Source: Chrysomallon squamiferum
Taxonomy: Eukaryota; Animalia; Mollusca
Length of the DNA stretch: 64,000 nt
NCBI GenBank assembly: GCA_012295275.1
Contig: CM022672.1
Span: 27,714,001 to 27,778,000 of the forward strand
Direction: 5' to 3'
Shown: piece by piece, positions 11,272-24,430 of the stretch
Position numbering within the stretch: position 1 is the first letter of the stretch
How the letters are laid out: each line of letters opens with the position of its first letter
Notes under the pieces: model-generated
Database searches by the model: none
Told to the model about the DNA's origin: nothing
What the model saw: only the letters and a program-made list of their open reading frames with translations
Translations under genes and position numbers: made by a program

Positions 11272-12725
11272 AGAGACAAGTAAGTACTTGTACTATTTAA
11301 TTACTAATATAAATTTATATTAATAAAAGTATTTTTTTTTAGCTAATCGGGTTCATTCCCGGGTATCATATACCGAATATACGTATATAATCATTTCTTG
11401 ACAAATTTAAGGGGTGTGTGGATAGAATGAAGTAAATAATTTGATGAGATAATATCGAACAAAGGATGGTGAAAGGATTGCCAGTATTTCCTTTCCGCTG
11501 AACATTTTTAGTTTGTTATTAGAAATATCCAAGCTGTTATTAATTCAGTTAGAGCGAGCCGTGCTATTTTGAAACAGACTATAACTACCCCTATTGTAGT
11601 CTCTCACCTTGGACATTCTTGAACAGCAATTTCTGATTAATATTGTGACCTGCGACTATTTCCCTTCCCCTCACAGAGGCTTCTAGTCTTTGCAGTCAGG
11701 AATTCATAACGTAACTTACTTAAAAAATAAACGACTTTTCGACAGTAGTAGCAGTAGCAGTAGCAGTAGTAATAGTAGTAGTCGTAGTAATATTAGTAGT
11801 ACATAAATAAATAAATTAATTAAATAGTTTTATTTATTTAAAATTTCAAAAAGAGAATTAAATTTTTAAAACGCTATAGTGTTTTATAATTTTTTTAAAA
11901 AGTATCTTTGAAAACTATGTATTTTGCAGTGTATTGTATACATACACACATACATACATATATACATACAAGCATATACATATAGATACACACACATATT
12001 TACTGATTTATTTTAAAATAATTTTATTTTATATATGTTTCAATAGTATCCAGCAGCCAATTTTACATTCGTGTTTAAACAAATCTATATTAAACAAATC
12101 GTTAAACAAATCTATATAGGCCCTAAATAAATAAATAAAAGAAAGAATAACCACGTTTTTGAAAAAGAGACAAAAACTGAAAGTGTAAGAGTAAAATAAC
12201 TAATAAGAATTTTACTTTGTACTGACCCATAAAATAGGAAATAAATTACTAAAAGAAGAACAAAAAGCAAACCAAAAGATATTATAATTTAAAATGATCT
12301 ATCTGTAACTGGATGAAGTTACTAATAGAACAATCAATGTTTATAAACCATCTTTAATGTTCAATTGTCGATAACATAATTAACAAATATGAATATTAAA
12401 TCATCTCCTCTTTGTTATTCCTGTTTTATATTAATTCAAAAAAATATATATATATATAAAAAAAAAAAAAAAATAAAAAATAAAAACCTTTTTGACACCT
12501 TACCGGTTGTCCTTGAATGTACCAATATACACTTTTTGTGTGTCTGTCTGTCTGATCATTTTAAGAACGGAAAATCTCTTTCTAATCAGTTATGTTTTCC
12601 TATCTAATAAAACATTTTCAGAGTTAGATGGCGCGTCTTCATCTGTTCAGATGTTCGGAATCCCGCCCTTTATTTTTATTTTTTTCCGATTCGTTGATCT
12701 TAATCGACTGTGTTAATTATTTCTA

Positions 12726-12889
12726 TTTGCCGCCTGGTTTTAATTTAATACCTGGACATAAATAAATATAACTCGAGCGTATTTTCTTGCTGTCTGTTTC
12801 AACTGTTGTTAGATATCATCAGTTAAATGCCACAATCGATCCCTTGTAAGTTTAATTAAACATAAAACAGAGACTGCAAATGACAAACG
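12726..12889 (+). repeat. Local direct repeat copy 1 (~165 bp)
   Basis: Matches 19541-19704 (gcctggtttt..taatacctggacataaa..ataactcgagcgtattttcttgc..gtttcaactgttgttagatatcatcagt..gcaaatgacaaacg). Confidence 0.85.
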
Positions 12890-13511
12890 TTTTAAATCCA
12901 ATTTAAATGTGTTTTCACTTAAGTGCTACATTTAAGTACCTGTTTTGATGAACTCTTTATTTTGTACTTAACAAGATATTTTAATGTTAATGTGTATTTA
13001 TTATAAATTCTTGCGATTTGTTTCTAATGTTAAATAATACAGACGAAACTGGTTAATGTATGTTTGTTTGTCTGTTAGAAGTTTACAGTCTTTTATGCCT
13101 AAAATATATATATTTTAATGTTAATTAAAAAACTTTTCGAATTCGGGTTTAATTCTCTCCAGCTAACTGGGTTACACATAATTTAAAGAGAAAATTAATA
13201 CTTTTGGAAATGTTTAGTTTTTGATTTCTGTATGAGCCTAAGCTAATGCGAAATGTAAAGTAACCGACCTAACTTTGCTATAATTTAGCACGTGTTATTG
13301 TCGGAATTCAGTACATGGAAAAGTATTGCAAGTTAATGATATTTTAATACTTAATGAAATATTTTGGCTCATATGAATGGACCCGAATGTACATGTTAGT
13401 CCGTTATTTTAGTTCATGTGTGAAATTTGATGATGATGAAAATATGATGATGATGACAGTTTGAACGAAATAGCATAGAAACACGAAATACAAGTAGTGT
13501 GTTTAACAGAC

Positions 13512-13578
13512 TTTAATATGCAAACATAGTGCTTTTATAATATAATTATCAAGATTACCTCAGGTTTCAAGCTTTAAT
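13512..13578 (-). terminator. Candidate polyadenylation signals (ATTAAA x2) of the M4 gene
   Basis: Plus-strand tttaat at 13573-13578 and 13512-13517, 80-150 nt downstream of the stop codon. Confidence 0.35.
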
Positions 13579-13660: not shown

Positions 13661-15608
13661 TTAAAAATAGCATCTATAACGCCCACAGTAATACGTGCGT
13701 AAGGATACTGTTGTGGCCCTGTTGGAAGAAAAGCAGATTAGGCGATCCTCCAGGCTTCTGGGTAAATAATAGAAGAGTCGATAGCTTCTCGATCCAATGA
13801 TATTTTGAGTCGCTGCGTTTATAATTGTCATTCGGACTCTAGATCTAGGTCGTGTTCTTCTTGCGTTGACATATACGTAGTACCAACTTGCCGATCGGGG
13901 CTGAAGTAGAAAACAAGGATTAACTGATGGAGATACAGTGATACTAAGTCTGCCTTGATAAAGTACATCATACGGACCGTTTGCTATTCCACATGTGGCG
14001 GTGTTGATACCTACTGTGGCAAACGCAGCATCGACTTCGTTAATGTATATAGTGTTTGGATCGTTAGCAAGATCTACTGCAGCCTGTCTAACTCCACAGG
14101 CAGCATGGTAGAACCCGCTGTTAGGATTCCAGTACAGTTGATTAGCTAACAAGAACAGGTGATATGCATCTTCCATTGGTATTAACTGTGTGTCCACCAT
14201 CTCAAAAAATGCCTTGTTGAAAATACCACTGCTATAGTGAACATCCATACCGCTGTGGTATTGGTTTATATGGCTTACGTACGGTAACTGAAAAGATCGC
14301 AGTGCCGAACCTGGTGTTTTATGTATATCGTAACCTACCAACCAGTCATGAGTTCTGCAGCCGGAAAGATTTTCAACGCCTCGCCTGTAATATCGGAGAA
14401 TGCTTCATTTACTCCGCCTGACTGATCTGCATAGATCAAATTCGAATTTTCTTGTATTATACCATGAGCTATTTCATGGGCGACAATGTCCAGTGACACC
14501 AAAGTGTAGAAGCTTGTATCAGAATCGCCAAAAAAGGCTGACTTGTAATATGAGCGCCAAACAGCATTTGAATATTGATTTCGATAATGTGTATACAGTA
14601 TCATCTTGTAAGGCAAAGGAGTCATGTTATATTTGTCTAGGAAAACGCTAGTCATTACATTTCCAAAAAAGAATGCATCTAGGTTTGCCGAGTTTGCACC
14701 ATTAATTGAGTCATCAGGCATGACACAATCGTATTCATATGCTGATACTAAGTTATTTGTTTGCTGCATGTCTCCTACCTTCACAAAAGCATTTTCCAGT
14801 ACACAATTAAAACCATTTTCGGTGACATCAAGACAAAATGGCGGCATTCCATAGAAGATAGGTCCAATCTTCGGGTTGCCACCTGTTCCTCCTGCAAAAT
14901 GAAGACAAGTCTGTCTTTTACTCATGTTCGATCTTCTGTACTCCGTTCGGTTTTTGGCTTCCTGAATAGAATATACCGATTCTGTGCGGTTTGGTGTCGT
15001 GTTATACATCGTCAACGTACTGAGAGAGCAAGCATCAACAACTAGATAATATCGAGCCAATTTATCTGGAGCATCGTCTTCGATTTCTATAACATATGCT
15101 AACTTCGCCTTATTCTGGTCATCAAAATAGATGCACCTCTGAAACCTAGACACGCTGCAGTATGGACAGGCGGCTGGGAGTCCAGATTTCTTTTTGCCTA
15201 GAGAAAACAAAAAGTCTTCGTTTCTTTGACAAGCTGAAGAGTCGCTGATGTCATTTTCCAGTCCTGAGACAAACTCGCCAGTCAAAGCTCCTGTATAACC
15301 GTTCTCTTCGTCATACGTTGCCTGTATACTGAGACCGAACACTAGGATGTCATCGAACGTCACTTCTATGCGTTGTTTTGTTTTACCGTTTGCGATTTTA
15401 ACGGTTCGTACAACTTTGAAGTCATAACGACTGTTTGCGTTGAGAATGTCGTGTAAATCTTGGCGGTTCTTTCCTTCTGCATTTATCTCCGAACGGTCTT
15501 GTCGACTATTTTCAGAATGTAAATTGCGACGTTCTGGCATTGCCATGTTTGCTCTTTTTCCGGCATCTACTCTTACAGCAGCGTCGATAGAAATGAGGAA
15601 CATAATAC
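13661..15608 (-). CDS. Peptidase M4 (thermolysin/pseudolysin/vibriolysin-like) zinc metalloprotease, main coding exon; one apparent 1-nt deletion at ~14375 (assembly error or recent pseudogenisation)
   Basis: ORFs 14335-15603 and 13661-14341 join into one M4 protein. Visible motifs: HEXXH (HEIAH), third Zn ligand motif GGVNEAFSD, catalytic-His motif DVHYSSGIFNKAF, and a LasB-like mature N-terminus (GGTGGNPKIG). An ~230-aa propeptide ends in ...SKR. Restoring one base at gag gcg tt|gaa gives GEA-x-ENLSGCRTHDWLVGYDI. The splice acceptor ttatttaaag| ends at 15609. Confidence 0.93.
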
Positions 15609-15857
15609 CTTTAAATAATAAAATAAGTAAATTATTCGTTGATAACGCTGAAAGACCGCCATACTACTTAGCTGATATTGTTTCTAAATAGTTTAAATCA
15701 GTCTTTATATATGACTTTACATATCTTTTTTTATTTTTATGATCTGAGAGGTATCAGAACCTAAAGACTAATCTAAATTATATATTAAGAAGTTTAGAGA
15801 GAAAACAAAAAAGTTTTAATTACTAGTAATGAAGCAGAATGAAAAAGATATACTTAC

Positions 15858-15894
15858 AGACAGTTGTTGGTAACCAAATCTCCATGATGTACAT
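15858..15894 (-). CDS. First coding exon (signal peptide) of the M4 protease gene
   Basis: ATG at 15894 is followed by 37 nt (MYIMEIWLPTTV+T) and a consensus donor |gtaagta. The phase-1 intron 15857-15609 splices in frame to give MYIMEIWLPTTVCIMFLISIDA-AVRV, a plausible signal peptide. The exon is preceded by the acceptor ttttaatttcag (~15917). Confidence 0.82.
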
Positions 15895-16121
15895 TTAAAA
15901 GCTACTTCCGAAACCTCTGAAATTAAAACGTTTTGCTGTAAGTTTGCTTTATTTATTTATTTTTATTTATTTATTTTTTATTTATTTTGTTACTTATTTA
16001 TTTGTTACACTTTCTTAGATAAAGTAGCAAAGTCTATCTACAATTTGCATTTAAAAAGAAAAGTTAAAATAGCTAAAAGAAAGATCTTGTCACAAAAGTT
16101 TCGGACAAAATTATTATTCAC

Positions 16122-16170: not shown

Positions 16171-16377
16171 TCATATATCATATGCATATCCAGTGGCGCA
16201 AACAGAGCACCTGTTCTGGCTAATTAATTTGCTTTCATTTTAATTAAACTCATTTGAACTTTAGGATTATATACACTTAATAGTGAAGGCTTGTTTATAT
16301 GTTATAAAATACTGGAATTGGTCGTAAATTACAATTTGATTTGCTGATATCAGCCACTTTTCTTAACTGCTTAATCT

Positions 16378-18486: not shown

Positions 18487-19372
18487 ATGCCACCACGACT
18501 GAGTGAACCGCAACGAAACAACGCCATCGGCCTTTACAAGCTGGCGAATCCTTCTCGGCCGTAGCCCGGGTGTTCCATGTATCCCCAAGCACCATCTTGA
18601 GATTGTGGTATCAGTTCCAGCAACACCAACCAACACGTGACCGTCTCAGATTGGGTAGACCACGTGTAACCACCTGGGCCCAAGACCACTACATACGGGT
18701 ACTTCATCTGCGGGAAAGAACCATAACAGCAACCTCTACTGCTTCAGGAATACCAGGTCTGCGTAGAATATCGGCTCAGACAGTGCGCAATCGTTTACAC
18801 GGGGCAGGTATTCGAGCCAGACTGCCTGTAACAAGAGTGGTTTTGACTCAACAACATCGTTGACTACGACATCAGTGGTGTCAAGTGCACAGAGTCTGGC
18901 CTCAATTACGATGGAAAACTGTCCGGTTTAGTGACAAGGCTCGATTTCTGCTTCGTCGAGCTGATGGAAGATGTCGAGTTTATAGACGTGGTGGTGAACG
19001 TTTTGCTGCAAACTGCATACAGGAAGCGGACAGATTTGGAGGTGGTAGTGCGATGGTGTGGTAACGCTGTATTCCAGCACGCCAATGCGAGACCACATAC
19101 AGCCAGACTCACAACAGCGTACCTTCACAACCAATAACATTCAGGTCCTTCCCTGGCCCTCTAAATCTCCGGATTTGAACCCATTAGAGCATTTATGGGA
19201 CGAGTTGGATAGACGACTGAGGCAACATCAACCACAGCCACAGAATTGTGCTCCGTTAGCATTATTACTACAGACAGAATGAGCCACCATTCCACAAGGT
19301 GTAATTCGTAATGCCATGGGAAGGAGATGTCAGGCAGTTCTGGACTCCCAAGGTGGGCAAACAAGATATTGA
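18487..19372 (+). mobile_element. Degenerate Tc1 (DD34E) transposase pseudogene
   Basis: Stitched frames read MPPRLSEPQRNNAIG..AVARVFHVSPSTI..GRPRVTT..ISAQTVRNRL..WKTVRFSDK..DRFGGGSAMVW [internal deletion] VFQHANARPH..WPSKSPDLNPLEHLWDEL..MGRRCQAV..GGQTRY*. There are stops, frameshifts, and the second catalytic Asp is mutated. Flanked by (GT)n; TIRs not recognisable. Confidence 0.92.
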
Positions 19373-19513: not shown

Positions 19514-19540
19514 GTGTTTATGATTTAAATCCAAGTTTAT

Positions 19541-19704
19541 ATCTGCTGCCTGGTTTTGATTAATACCTGGACATAAATTAATATAACTCGAGCGTATTTT
19601 CTTGCAGTTTGTTTCAACTGTTGTTAGATATCATCAGTGAAAGGGCAGAACCGATACCTTCTAAGTTTACTCAGATATATAACAAAGAGTGCAAATGACA
19701 AACG
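19541..19704 (+). repeat. Local direct repeat copy 2 (~165 bp)
   Basis: See 12726-12889. Confidence 0.85.
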
Positions 19705-20156
19705 GTGTAAATACAGTTTAATTACTTGTAATCAGTTTGTGTGTTTGTGTGTTTTTGCCTCCGTGTGATTGTGTGTGTGTGTATGTGAGATTGAGGGCGT
19801 GTGCGTGTGAGTGTGTGAGTGCATGCGAACGTACATGTGTGTTTCTTAGCGCGCCTGTGAGTTTTTCCATGTGTGTCTTTTCGTGTGTGTGTGTTTTTGC
19901 ATGGATGTATGTATGTGTGTTTTTGAGTGCGTATGCCTGTGCTTGCGTGTGTGTGAGTCTGTGTGTGTTAATAAAAAATTGATATATAAAACGAAGATGA
20001 TGATGATAATGAAGCAAAAAAATATAGGTATGGTAATAAGATTAACATACATGAAGCTTGGTGATTGATTTATTGAAACTGAACATTTGTATTTTGTCTA
20101 CGAAACCTCTTTATTATAATTCGGCTTGGCTGTTATTTAGTGTGAATGCAGTAATC

Positions 20157-21689: not shown

Positions 21690-22135
21690 ATATATATAAT
21701 GAAATAACCAAAATAATAAAATCAAATAAAAAACACACACAGCAACAGCACAGTAGATACAAAACAGAGACAAAGATACACACACAACATCAGAAATAAA
21801 ACACAAATGTGGAAGAACAACAAACATATAAAATGCAGCACAGCATAGCATTCAAAACAAAACACAAGAGGACTCATACCACATGAAACAAATTACAATA
21901 TTTTCAAACAAACACACACATATACAAACATACAGAACACAAACTACAGACAACACCAGAACCAAACAACAACAAACAACAACAGCAGCACAGGGTACAA
22001 AAAACACACAAGTAGACAGCACCACAGGAAAAAAAAAACACTCAAGAATACAAACAAACTTTAGACAATAAAAGAACACACAAAAAAGCAAATATGCAAC
22101 AAAAACAAATGCCTACAAATAATAATAATAATAAT
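21690..22135 (+). repeat. Inverted copy of the GT/CA-rich block of the 1.38-kb array unit
   Basis: Reverse complement of ~33770-34160 (e.g. caaaacaaaacacaagaggactcataccacat..caaacaaactttagacaataaaagaacacac). Confidence 0.92.
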
Positions 22136-22744
22136 AAACATGTTTCTGAGTATTCTGTAACTGATTTACACATTTTAAAATATGTTCAGTGAAATTTGGT
22201 TCTTTCTGGAGTTGAATATTCGTGAAAACATAACATCACAAACAATTAACTAATAAGTAATGTAGTAGTAGGAGTAGTGGTCGTGGTAATAATACAAATA
22301 ATAATAATAACAGCAACAACAACTGCAATTTAGTCAACATTTACATCGAGTAAAGAACTAATCTTATTTATACTTCAATTGTTATTTACACTTTTATTTA
22401 AATCTCTCACAGTATTATCAGCAAGTAAATGTCTGGAATAAAATTGCATTTTGTTTTTTAATTCAATGGAAACTGAAAAACATTATATTTTTGAAACAGT
22501 CTTTGTATAAACTGAAGATTAAAAAACATAAAAATCCTTGGAATCATAAATATTTTCAGTGAAATATTAAAATTTAATATATATATATCAAAAAAAAAAA
22601 AAAAAACACGAAAGAAAAAACATACAAAAAATTGATAAAAATAGATAAATACAGAAAATCAAAAACAATGACAACACAAATTATTTTGTCACGATTATAA
22701 CATACGTCAGTCAGATTTGTTTTCATTCATAAACCTGTTCATTA

Positions 22745-24430
22745 TTTAGCAGGTGAAAAACCTCGTTTCAAATTTAATGTTACCAAAATATTACATGGAT
22801 GGCGTGGAAAAAATTGAAACAGCCTTGGATTTCTAATTCCTTGAGTCAAGACTAGATGATGATGATGACGATAATGATAATAATATCAGAAAAAATCATC
22901 CATGCAAACAACTAAATATTAACATATATTAAAACATTCAGAATTTGCTCTTAATTTTTACTTCTAGAGTTATGAAATAAGATTTTCTTTCATTAATATT
23001 TATTACCTATATCTTTCTGTTTCTTAATCTTTCAGACTCGCTAGGTGGGATTTGTGGCTTGGAAATCTGGAAGGTTGTGAATGAACGGGAGGGGATTAGA
23101 TTTCTTCAGCAGTCTGAACAGAAACAGACATCTGTAGTAAACTGGTTTTTCTTTTTTATACAAGTTAAGCAATGATGAACTGATTTTGAGAAACTGAATC
23201 AATAAAATGAAAGAAATTCATAAAAATAACCTTCATTTTACTCAATGCTGTATTATTTTTTTATTATTATTTTAAATTTTTATTTACAATCATACAATTT
23301 TACAGTCATTGGAAATGTATTATGCATTATAATGTAGTCGTAAGACTCTCAATCATGTTTTAATTTCTAATCCTAGGTGAGGAAGGCAAAACACTGCCAG
23401 GAGAGAAAGAGGTAATGAACATGAAGACAGAAATACAGAGATGAAGCAGCGTTCAGGGCAATCGCTAATCAGGAATGGGTTTTCATTTTCTTTAGGGTTG
23501 CCGGCATTTGCATTTTAATGTAGTCGTAAGACTCTTAATAATGTTCTGCTTTATAATCCGTAGGTGAGGAAGACAAAAACTGCCAGCAGAGGAAGACAGG
23601 AATGCACAGATGAAGCAGCGTTCAGGGCGCTCGCTAACCTGGAATGAGTTTTCATTTTCTTTAAGGTTGCCGGCATTTGGGTTGAAAGTGTATTATATGC
23701 ATTTTAATGTAGTCGTAAGACTATTAATTATGTTTTGCTTTATAATCCGTAGGTGAGGAGGCAAAGACATCAGGAAGATGAAGACAGAAATACACAGATG
23801 AAGCAGTGTTCTGGGCTTTCGCTAATGAGGAATGGGTTTTCGTTTTCCTTAGGGTTGCCGGTATTTGGTTTGGGATTTTTGAATGTACTATATTTGAATG
23901 TTGTTATCAGACATTAGTAATTTTCTGCTTTATTATCCACAGGCGATGAAGGCAAAAGACTGTCAGGAGTGGAAGACATCAGCTAAATAGCAAACGAAAA
24001 TGCCTGTAGATTTTGTCAAAACGAAATTAATAAAATGTAAATGATAATAGTAAAGGTTTTTGCCTTATTTGAAAGATATAAAATAAAAATATGAAACATA
24101 TGAACATATATGAATAAATAAATAAATAAGTAATAATAATAATAATAATAGTAATGAAAATAATGATGATAATAACAGTAATGATAATAATGTTACTAGT
24201 AATAATAACGATAACACTGGTAATGAAAATAATTATGAAAATAATGACAATGACGAAAACATCATCAACAAAGATAATAAGAAGAGTAATAATGAGAGTA
24301 ACACTAAAAATGATGTAATTAGTTTTGTATTTGTTTTGAAGTTGGTAAAAATGAAATACTGACTATTCTTCGGTCTCTTTTCACAGGATAACAAGAGCAA
24401 GATGAAGACAGGAATACATTGAGGAAGCAT
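22745..24430 (+). pseudogene. Plus-strand paralog of the multi-exon non-coding/decayed gene, including a ~190-bp tandem cassette x3-4 at 23320-23990
   Basis: Exon-like blocks follow acceptors at ~22753 (ttagcag|), ~23036 (tttcag|), 23376, 23563, 23752, 23942 and 24386 (ttttcacag|). Each is homologous to minus-strand blocks at 26.4-26.9 kb, 58-61 kb and in the array. No stop-free spliced frame found. Confidence 0.6.

What the first reader, a model, noticed from the sequence alone, without database searches (positions are those of the whole stretch)
13661..15894. Bacterial-type thermolysin (M4) protease domesticated in an animal genome
Seen: a full M4 zymogen (~660 aa after repair) embedded in microsatellite-rich animal DNA. 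The pro- and catalytic domains sit in one intronless ~1.95-kb exon, while introns occur only in the signal peptide and 5' UTR. Established: M4 is a predominantly bacterial family, and the motifs here (GGNPKIG, INGA.S...DA.FFG, LDIVAHE, DVH.SSG..N.AF) follow the Pseudomonas LasB/Vibrio vibriolysin branch, which are secreted virulence or nutritional proteases. Inference: horizontal transfer from a gammaproteobacterium followed by gain of a host-type spliced leader, possibly for digestive, salivary/venom, hatching or defence use.
Basis: partly seen in the sequence, partly recalled or inferred. Interest (0 to 1): 0.8.

Follow-up and report, generated by a model that had tools for sequence, protein, structure and literature searches.

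The report
Mollusc-type thermolysin protease, bacterial ancestry
This is an animal gene, likely from a mollusc, for a predicted secreted zinc protease of the mostly bacterial thermolysin family; it belongs to a multi-copy family shared by snails, clams and octopuses, so it likely came from bacteria very long ago rather than recently.

Summary
The gene is real: a 658-residue thermolysin-family (M4) pre-pro-protease on the minus strand, split only by a 249-base intron in its signal peptide. The frame break near 14378 is missing from all 4 independent sequencing runs laid on it, so the gene is likely intact. The same runs show 3-4 further copies at about 82-86% identity, and one related contig keeps the same splice donor. 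It is not a fresh bacterial transfer. Of 26 related clusters looked up, 12 carry names, and 11 of those are molluscs (abalone, limpet, Gigantopelta, ark clam, pearl oyster, scallop, argonaut, octopus). The full-length tree nests the protein in that clade (100/98), rejects grouping it with bacteria (AU p=0.0002; catalytic domain alone p=0.10), and four clade-specific cysteines agree. Its nearest non-animal kin are vibriolysin/LasB-type enzymes, and its tail is a diverged bacterial PPC domain. An ancient transfer into animals is therefore likely, but donor and date are unresolved. Likely role: secreted general protein digestion. Expression was not tested. I found no paper describing this animal family.

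The parts
15858..15885 (-). First coding exon: start codon and first 9 codons of the predicted signal peptide (28 bases, phase 1)
   Evidence: Sequence; spliced to exon 2 it gives a hydrophobic N-terminus. A related contig in runs X1 and X7 has different, still hydrophobic codons but the same donor at the same offset (table 7, read by eye).
15609..15857 (-). Intron, 249 bases, GTAAGT donor and T-rich AG acceptor
   Evidence: spanned by contigs of 4 of 4 DNA runs with 0-3 differences. Splicing itself not observed: no RNA run was listed.
13661..15608 (-). Large coding exon: end of signal peptide, propeptide, catalytic domain, C-terminal domain, stop
14910..15579 (-). Propeptide (FTP/PepSY type) and flexible linker
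   Evidence: Pfam FTP weak; phmmer to MCP-02 propeptide E 2.7e-7; model matches that propeptide, Foldseek E 1.2e-11, TM 0.71 of target; linker has pLDDT under 50.
14000..14909 (-). M4 catalytic domain
14464..14478 (-). HEXXH zinc motif (HEIAH)
   Evidence: H, E, H match 22 of 22 bacterial and 11 of 11 nearest-clade rows.
14392..14409 (-). Third zinc ligand motif (NEAFSD)
14377..14380 (-). Frame break in the window's sequence, absent from independent runs
   Evidence: All 7 spanning contigs of 4 of 4 runs (3 studies) carry one more base here (table 4).
14225..14304 (-). Substrate-binding Arg and catalytic His (DVHYSSG); the loop between them is 5 residues short in this copy
   Evidence: 18 residues against 23 in 56 of 59 other rows; a paralog contig has the longer loop (table 5).
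13664..13990 (-). C-terminal beta-sandwich, a diverged pre-peptidase C-terminal (PPC) domain
   Evidence: No Pfam hit; profile-profile match to bacterial PPC, probability 93%, 92 columns; model pLDDT about 90; collagen-binding/PPC domains Z 9.4-10.2, tied with SID1 domains Z 10.3-10.5.
15917..16121 (-). Possible 5' UTR intron (unverified), with TATA-like sites upstream at 16271 and 16299
   Evidence: Consensus matches only.
13512..13578 (-). Possible polyadenylation signals (ATTAAA at 13578 and 13517)
   Evidence: Consensus matches only in AT-rich DNA; may be chance.

Best explanation
This is a host gene, likely of a mollusc, for a predicted secreted thermolysin-family zinc endopeptidase; it is one of several copies in its genome and belongs to a family shared across molluscs that likely descends from one ancient uptake of a vibriolysin-type bacterial gene. 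Shown: gene anatomy, intact active-site residues, open frame in independent samples, extra copies, placement in the mollusc clade, PPC-like tail. Inferred mechanism: splicing builds a signal peptide; the propeptide folds and blocks the enzyme until it is cut off in the flexible linker (by self-cleavage as in bacterial M4, or at the Lys-Arg pair just before the mature domain); one zinc held by two His and a Glu activates water and cuts proteins on the amino side of bulky hydrophobic residues; the PPC tail holds large protein substrates; clade-specific cysteine pairs likely add disulfides. Most likely job: extracellular bulk protein breakdown (gut or digestive gland; about 45% within this reading), ahead of mucus or matrix remodelling and defence.
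For: Intact frame in 4 of 4 runs. 3-4 listed paralog contigs per run, each near the depth of the matching copy (table 8). 16 of 44 listed catalytic-domain differences are silent, against 21% expected by chance (p=0.012; pooled, cut tables). 11 of 12 named clusters are molluscs from three classes. Full-length tree: nearest clade 100/97, with the second mollusc clade 100/98, animal-type rows split from bacteria 100/99; grouping with bacteria rejected, p=0.0002. Four Cys shared with 10-11 of 11 nearest-clade rows and 0 of 22 bacteria. Catalytic residues conserved. Vibriolysin type against thermolysin/protealysin outgroup 100/100. PPC kinship; PPC raises affinity and efficiency on protein substrates in Pseudoalteromonas E495 (PMC3327674, abstract). 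M4 'known almost exclusively from bacteria' (PMC7851659, abstract passage).
Against: Catalytic domain alone does not reject grouping with bacteria (p=0.10). Root unresolved; animal-type rows do not nest in a named bacterial group, so direction and donor are not shown. One origin of all animal-type rows is allowed, not shown (p=0.47). 14 of 26 looked-up clusters have no name, so 'animal-type' is inferred for most rows. The window protein and its sister P0001 are long branches. This copy departs from near-invariant sites: a 5-residue loop loss, Thr for a Pro kept in 11 of 11 nearest-clade and 22 of 22 bacterial rows, Val for Phe in NAFW. No expression or activity data.
Confidence: 0.7

Rival explanations
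1. Recent, lineage-specific transfer from a gammaproteobacterium into this animal.
For: Nearly intronless; GC 41-43% and CpG o/e 0.98 against 31% and 0.55-0.62 in flanks; plain BLASTP scores of some bacterial rows (e.g. P0029, 4.8e-78) are close to those of mollusc rows; catalytic-domain AU test p=0.10.
Against: Full-length AU test p=0.0002; four Cys shared only with the mollusc clade; third-position GC 0.38-0.39; nearest bacteria only about 30-34% identical over the length.
Confidence: 0.04
2. The animal M4 family is not a transfer into animals but an old eukaryotic gene lost in most lineages, or several independent transfers into different animal groups.
For: Root polytomy; animal-type groups are not one clade in the rooted catalytic tree; unnamed group P0030/P0190/P0191 is much closer to bacteria and keeps two clear PPC domains.
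Against: A single clade is not rejected (p=0.47) and appears at 100/99 in the unrooted full-length tree; all close non-animal relatives found are vibriolysin-type bacteria; the ESM Atlas listed bacterial M4 clusters and one fungal M36 cluster, no named animal or protist M4 cluster (weak).
Confidence: 0.18
3. This copy is a decaying or catalytically weak paralog in a birth-and-death family.
For: Frame break in the window; 5-residue loop loss and two unusual substitutions; long branch; another paralog contig is 4 bases short over one stretch in 3 listed runs, a likely pseudogene (table 5).
Against: Frame open in 4 of 4 runs; no stop in 658 codons; all zinc ligands and catalytic residues kept; confident folds (pLDDT 85-87).
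Confidence: 0.12
4. Bacterial contamination or a chimeric assembly.
For: Some runs hold very long contigs (up to 189 kb), so other organisms may be present.
Against: Spliceosomal-type intron spanned by contigs in 4 of 4 runs; donor kept in a paralog; relatives lie on chromosome-scale mollusc scaffolds of 56-110 Mb.
Confidence: 0.01

Closest known systems
Mollusc M4 peptidases in RefSeq/GenBank ('elastase-like', 'neutral protease-like', 'hemagglutinin/proteinase-like', 'virulence metalloprotease-like'; e.g. Haliotis asinina XP_067678922.1 and XP_067678047.1, Gigantopelta aegis XP_041359647.1)
   Same: Same clade (100/97), same layout of signal, propeptide, catalytic domain and diverged PPC tail, same four extra Cys.
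   Different: Only about 33% identical over the length; forms a fast-evolving branch with unnamed P0001; short Arg-to-His loop and further private Cys. No functional study was found.
Vibriolysin MCP-02 / PlM4P (PDB 3nqx, 3nqz, 7ecc) and Pseudoalteromonas E495
   Same: Best solved relatives by sequence and fold; propeptide, catalytic domain and PPC in the same order.
   Different: Spliced eukaryotic leader, extra Cys pairs, PPC too diverged for Pfam, about 42% identity in the catalytic domain.
Pseudomonas aeruginosa elastase LasB (pseudolysin)
   Same: Same active-site residues and hydrophobic S1' pocket by alignment (residue roles recalled).
   Different: LasB has no PPC tail and is a pathogen's secreted enzyme; nothing here shows a virulence or toxin role.
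Thermolysin / bacillolysin / protealysin
   Same: M4 fold, HEXXH plus Glu (Z 13.2).
   Different: Distant (E 7e-12); on the far side of a 100/100 split.

Membership tests
Peptidase family M4 (thermolysin) | HEXXH zinc motif with third ligand Glu in NEXXSD about 20 residues on | tested here: met
   HEIAH 14478-14464, NEAFSD 14409-14392.
Peptidase family M4 (thermolysin) | Pfam Peptidase_M4 and Peptidase_M4_C over cut-off | tested here: met
   64.5 and 61.3 bits against 22.4 and 24.4.
Peptidase family M4 (thermolysin) | Conserved Asn (NAFW), Tyr, Arg, Asp and His around the active site (roles recalled) | tested here: met
   All present and matching the consensus of 22 bacterial rows; neighbouring Phe and Pro are changed.
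Peptidase family M4 (thermolysin) | Thermolysin fold | tested here: met
   Models of the two halves match MCP-02, LasB and thermolysin. The whole protein was not folded in one piece.
Peptidase family M4 (thermolysin) | Zinc-dependent endopeptidase activity, hydrophobic P1', propeptide removal | not testable with these tools
   Needs an assay.
Vibriolysin/LasB type within M4 | Groups with vibriolysin-type enzymes against thermolysin, protealysin and Streptomyces M4 | tested here: met
   100/100 split from 6 outgroup rows.
Vibriolysin/LasB type within M4 | FTP/PepSY propeptide | tested here: met
   Under Pfam cut-off but matches the MCP-02 propeptide by sequence and fold.
Vibriolysin/LasB type within M4 | C-terminal PPC domain | tested here: inconclusive
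   No Pfam hit; hhalign 93%; fold matches PPC/collagen-binding domains but ties with other sandwiches. Likely, not proven.
Mollusc M4 clade | Nested in the clade of named mollusc M4 proteins | tested here: met
   100/98 in both careful trees; AU p=0.0002 full length, p=0.10 catalytic only.
Mollusc M4 clade | Clade-specific cysteines | tested here: met
   10/11, 11/11, 11/11, 11/11 of nearest-clade rows; 0/22 bacteria.
Mollusc M4 clade | Host organism is a mollusc; shared intron position and synteny | not testable with these tools
   No genome held; no eukaryote loci of relatives could be fetched.
Recent bacterium-to-animal transfer | Nests among bacteria apart from other animals' copies; narrow host range | tested here: not met
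Ancient bacterium-to-animal transfer | One animal clade nested inside a bacterial group | tested here: inconclusive
   One clade not rejected; nesting not resolved.

The most novel reading that the evidence does not exclude
One very old transfer of a vibriolysin-type protease gene, PPC domain included, into early animals (before gastropods, bivalves and cephalopods split, perhaps earlier) founded an overlooked, repeatedly expanded family of secreted proteases. Molluscs would then carry their own version of the main virulence protease of the vibrios that kill them, and some 'bacterial vibriolysin' transcripts in mollusc data would be host genes.
Probability: 0.5. Interest if true: 0.62.

Novelty: new member of a known kind. 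Interest (0 to 1): 0.45.

Why it matters
The locus itself is one more copy of a family already annotated in mollusc genomes, so it is not a one-off discovery. The family is the interesting part. M4 is described as almost exclusively bacterial (PMC7851659, abstract), and a 2020 clam genome paper stated that no transfer had been reported in Mollusca before it (PMC7826175, passages). A pan-mollusc, multi-copy M4 family of likely bacterial origin would be a much older case, a candidate for undescribed digestive or matrix-degrading activity in a large phylum, and a source of false 'bacterial virulence gene' calls in shellfish transcriptomes. My 10 paper searches found no description of it, but the library lacks most subscription journals, and a named GenBank entry (AJF36072.1, abalone 'metalloprotease') hints that a cloning study may exist.

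Tried and rejected
No whole genome is held, so paralogs were counted only from contigs of other samples. No RNA holder was listed; this says nothing on expression. The first laying of contigs at 88% showed no cover at the break; the second at 80% on a shorter stretch covered it. Word-seeded protein searches were insensitive: 6 hits and 2 hits at my cut-offs. Metagenome scan with the window protein found no relative; the scan for the P0030 group returned 80 loci at 38-54% identity and not the group itself, so its source stays unknown. Pfam found nothing over cut-off in 13 pieces scanned, 12 other long frames and the tail; no other host gene was found to date or place the organism. One apparent stop among paralog differences vanished when the two neighbouring changes were read together. 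The first careful tree did not finish (quick tree shown). Ten paper searches (listings with abstract starts) gave no paper on animal M4; term look-ups in PMC12773714, PMC12607849, PMC5440852 and PMC9848320 (passages only) found no mention of it. No supplements were read; transfer screens may list this family in supplementary tables. The MCP-02 autoprocessing paper is not held, so self-cleavage is recalled. No complex was predicted. Rejected: venom or toxin label (no evidence), contamination, recent transfer.

Full report
Observation. The minus strand carries an ATG at 15885, a 28-base coding exon, a 249-base GT-AG intron (15857-15609) and one long exon to a stop at 13661. In the window this exon is split into two frames near 14378. 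The first gives Peptidase_M4 and the second Peptidase_M4_C over Pfam's cut-offs. Read through with X, the product is 658 residues without a stop. Splicing yields a hydrophobic 19-residue leader (judged by eye and hydropathy, no signal-peptide program was available). The best solved relatives are vibriolysin/LasB-type enzymes. The flanks are 30.6% GC and rich in microsatellites. The 5' UTR intron is only a consensus match.

Is it real and intact? Seven public DNA runs of one organism, from 3 studies, hold 68-82% of the stretch's words; one may be the window's own source. In 4 of 4 runs laid, contigs span the exon 2 / intron / exon 1 region with 0-3 differences. In 4 of 4 runs laid on 14080-14680, a 1.66-1.92 kb contig about 99% alike carries one more base at the break, and so do all 7 contigs that span it. 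The break is therefore likely an assembly error or a private allele.

Copies. Over the zinc motif each run lists 3-4 further contigs about 82-86% alike, each near the depth of the matching contig (table 8, which is cut; depth is no strict copy number). More lie over the propeptide. One related contig, listed in 2 of 4 runs, has different signal-peptide codons but the same splice donor at the same offset (table 7, read by eye), which argues that the intron is real. Of 44 listed differences in the catalytic domain 16 are silent, against 21% by chance (p=0.012); this pools paralogs and uses only the rows shown. One paralog contig is 4 bases short over one stretch, a likely pseudogene (table 5).

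Relatives. A profile of the window pieces and three animal-type hits was run over 1.84 billion representatives (the best 150 are biased towards this profile). I looked up 26 clusters: 12 carry names, and 11 are molluscs: Haliotis (4 clusters), Patella, Gigantopelta, Tegillarca, Pinctada, Ylistrum, Argonauta, Octopus. The twelfth is a Siedleckia transcriptome, a gut parasite of polychaetes (recalled), so possibly host RNA. Several lie on scaffolds of 56-110 Mb. Named bacteria came from 75 genome loci: 55 Gamma-, 17 Betaproteobacteria, 3 others, plus 6 distant outgroup genes.

Trees. From 108 rows I dropped 42 (three long branches, near-duplicates, thinning for time) and kept 66; groups were named after FastTree runs, and unnamed rows are 'animal-type' by inference. 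Catalytic domain, 302 columns: the window protein pairs with unnamed P0001 (96/99) inside a 23-row clade holding 9 named mollusc proteins (100/98); all vibriolysin-type rows split from the outgroup at 100/100; the base is a polytomy. Full length, 60 rows, 599 columns, no outgroup: nearest clade of 12 rows with Haliotis and Gigantopelta 100/97; animal-type against bacteria 100/99. Forcing the window protein and P0001 among bacteria is rejected on full length (p=0.0002) but not on the catalytic domain alone (p=0.10). One clade of all 38 animal-type rows is not rejected (p=0.47), which does not prove it. Four cysteines are shared with 10-11 of 11 nearest-clade rows and 0 of 22 bacteria. The host is thus likely a mollusc, and the gene family predates the split of gastropods, bivalves and cephalopods.

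Mechanism. Shown by alignment: both zinc His, the catalytic Glu, the third-ligand Glu, and the Asn, Tyr, Arg, Asp and His around the site match the bacterial consensus (their roles are recalled from thermolysin and LasB). Models of the two halves are confident (pLDDT 86.5 and 84.9) and match MCP-02 and its propeptide. The tail folds as a beta-sandwich like collagen-binding and PPC domains (Z 9.4-10.2, tied with unrelated SID1 domains) and matches bacterial PPC by profile (93%; through the Octopus/scallop group 98%). In a bacterial M4, PPC raises affinity and efficiency on proteins (PMC3327674, abstract). Inferred: secretion, propeptide removal in the disordered linker, cleavage before bulky hydrophobic residues, tail-assisted binding of large substrates. 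A Cys just before the usual mature start likely pairs with one inside the domain, so the cut would fall further upstream, for example at the Lys-Arg pair. I favour extracellular protein digestion, from family behaviour and copy number only. Against full activity: this copy lacks 5 residues in the Arg-to-His loop (18 against 23 in 56 of 59 rows; a paralog keeps them) and changes two near-invariant residues.

Origin. Bacterial ancestry is likely: every close non-animal relative found is a vibriolysin-type bacterial enzyme, the domain order including PPC is bacterial, the body of the gene has no intron, and M4 is described as almost exclusively bacterial (PMC7851659, abstract passage). But no tree here nests the animal rows in a named bacterial group, so a gammaproteobacterial donor, the direction and the number of transfers are not shown. 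I did not survey other eukaryote groups.

Verdict. The locus is a new, fast-evolving member of a family already annotated in mollusc genomes. Ten searches of the held library found no description of that family or its origin; supplements and subscription journals were not seen. Interest 0.45.

Noticed in passing
window 32517-58305: Tandem array of a ~1.39 kb unit: 17 whole copies 93-97% alike plus partial copies at both ends, with strong strand skew. Pieces of the unit lie in the opposite orientation at 21713-22137 and 24144-24387. No Pfam family over cut-off in the frames scanned.
   Followed up: partly
window 18500-19370, + strand: Broken Tc1/mariner-type transposase: DDE_3 over cut-off and a weak Tc3 HTH in separate frames.
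   Followed up: partly
paralog contigs over window 14483-14604 (table 5): A paralog is 4 bases shorter over this stretch in contigs of all 4 runs, a likely frameshifted pseudogene of the family.
   Followed up: no
proteins P0030, P0190, P0191: Unnamed proteins on mRNA-sized contigs with an animal-style N-terminus but two clear PPC domains; the animal-type group closest to bacteria. May be a slow-evolving branch or a separate transfer.
   Followed up: partly
proteins P0001, P0049, P0033: Predicted from long contigs yet starting at or inside the end of the signal peptide, as the window's large exon does; a weak hint that the leader intron is shared across the family.
   Followed up: no
PMC10913743 Table 2 (passage): Two 'vibriolysin' transcripts from whelk egg fluid are assigned to bacteria by annotation; they could be host M4 genes.
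   Followed up: no
window 13661-15608: CpG is not depleted in the coding exon (o/e 0.98) unlike the flanks (0.55-0.62), as would fit an unmethylated, tissue-restricted gene.
   Followed up: no
window 12720-12906 and 19536-19721: A 187-base dispersed repeat, 86% alike, lies about 750 bases downstream of the gene's stop codon.
   Followed up: no
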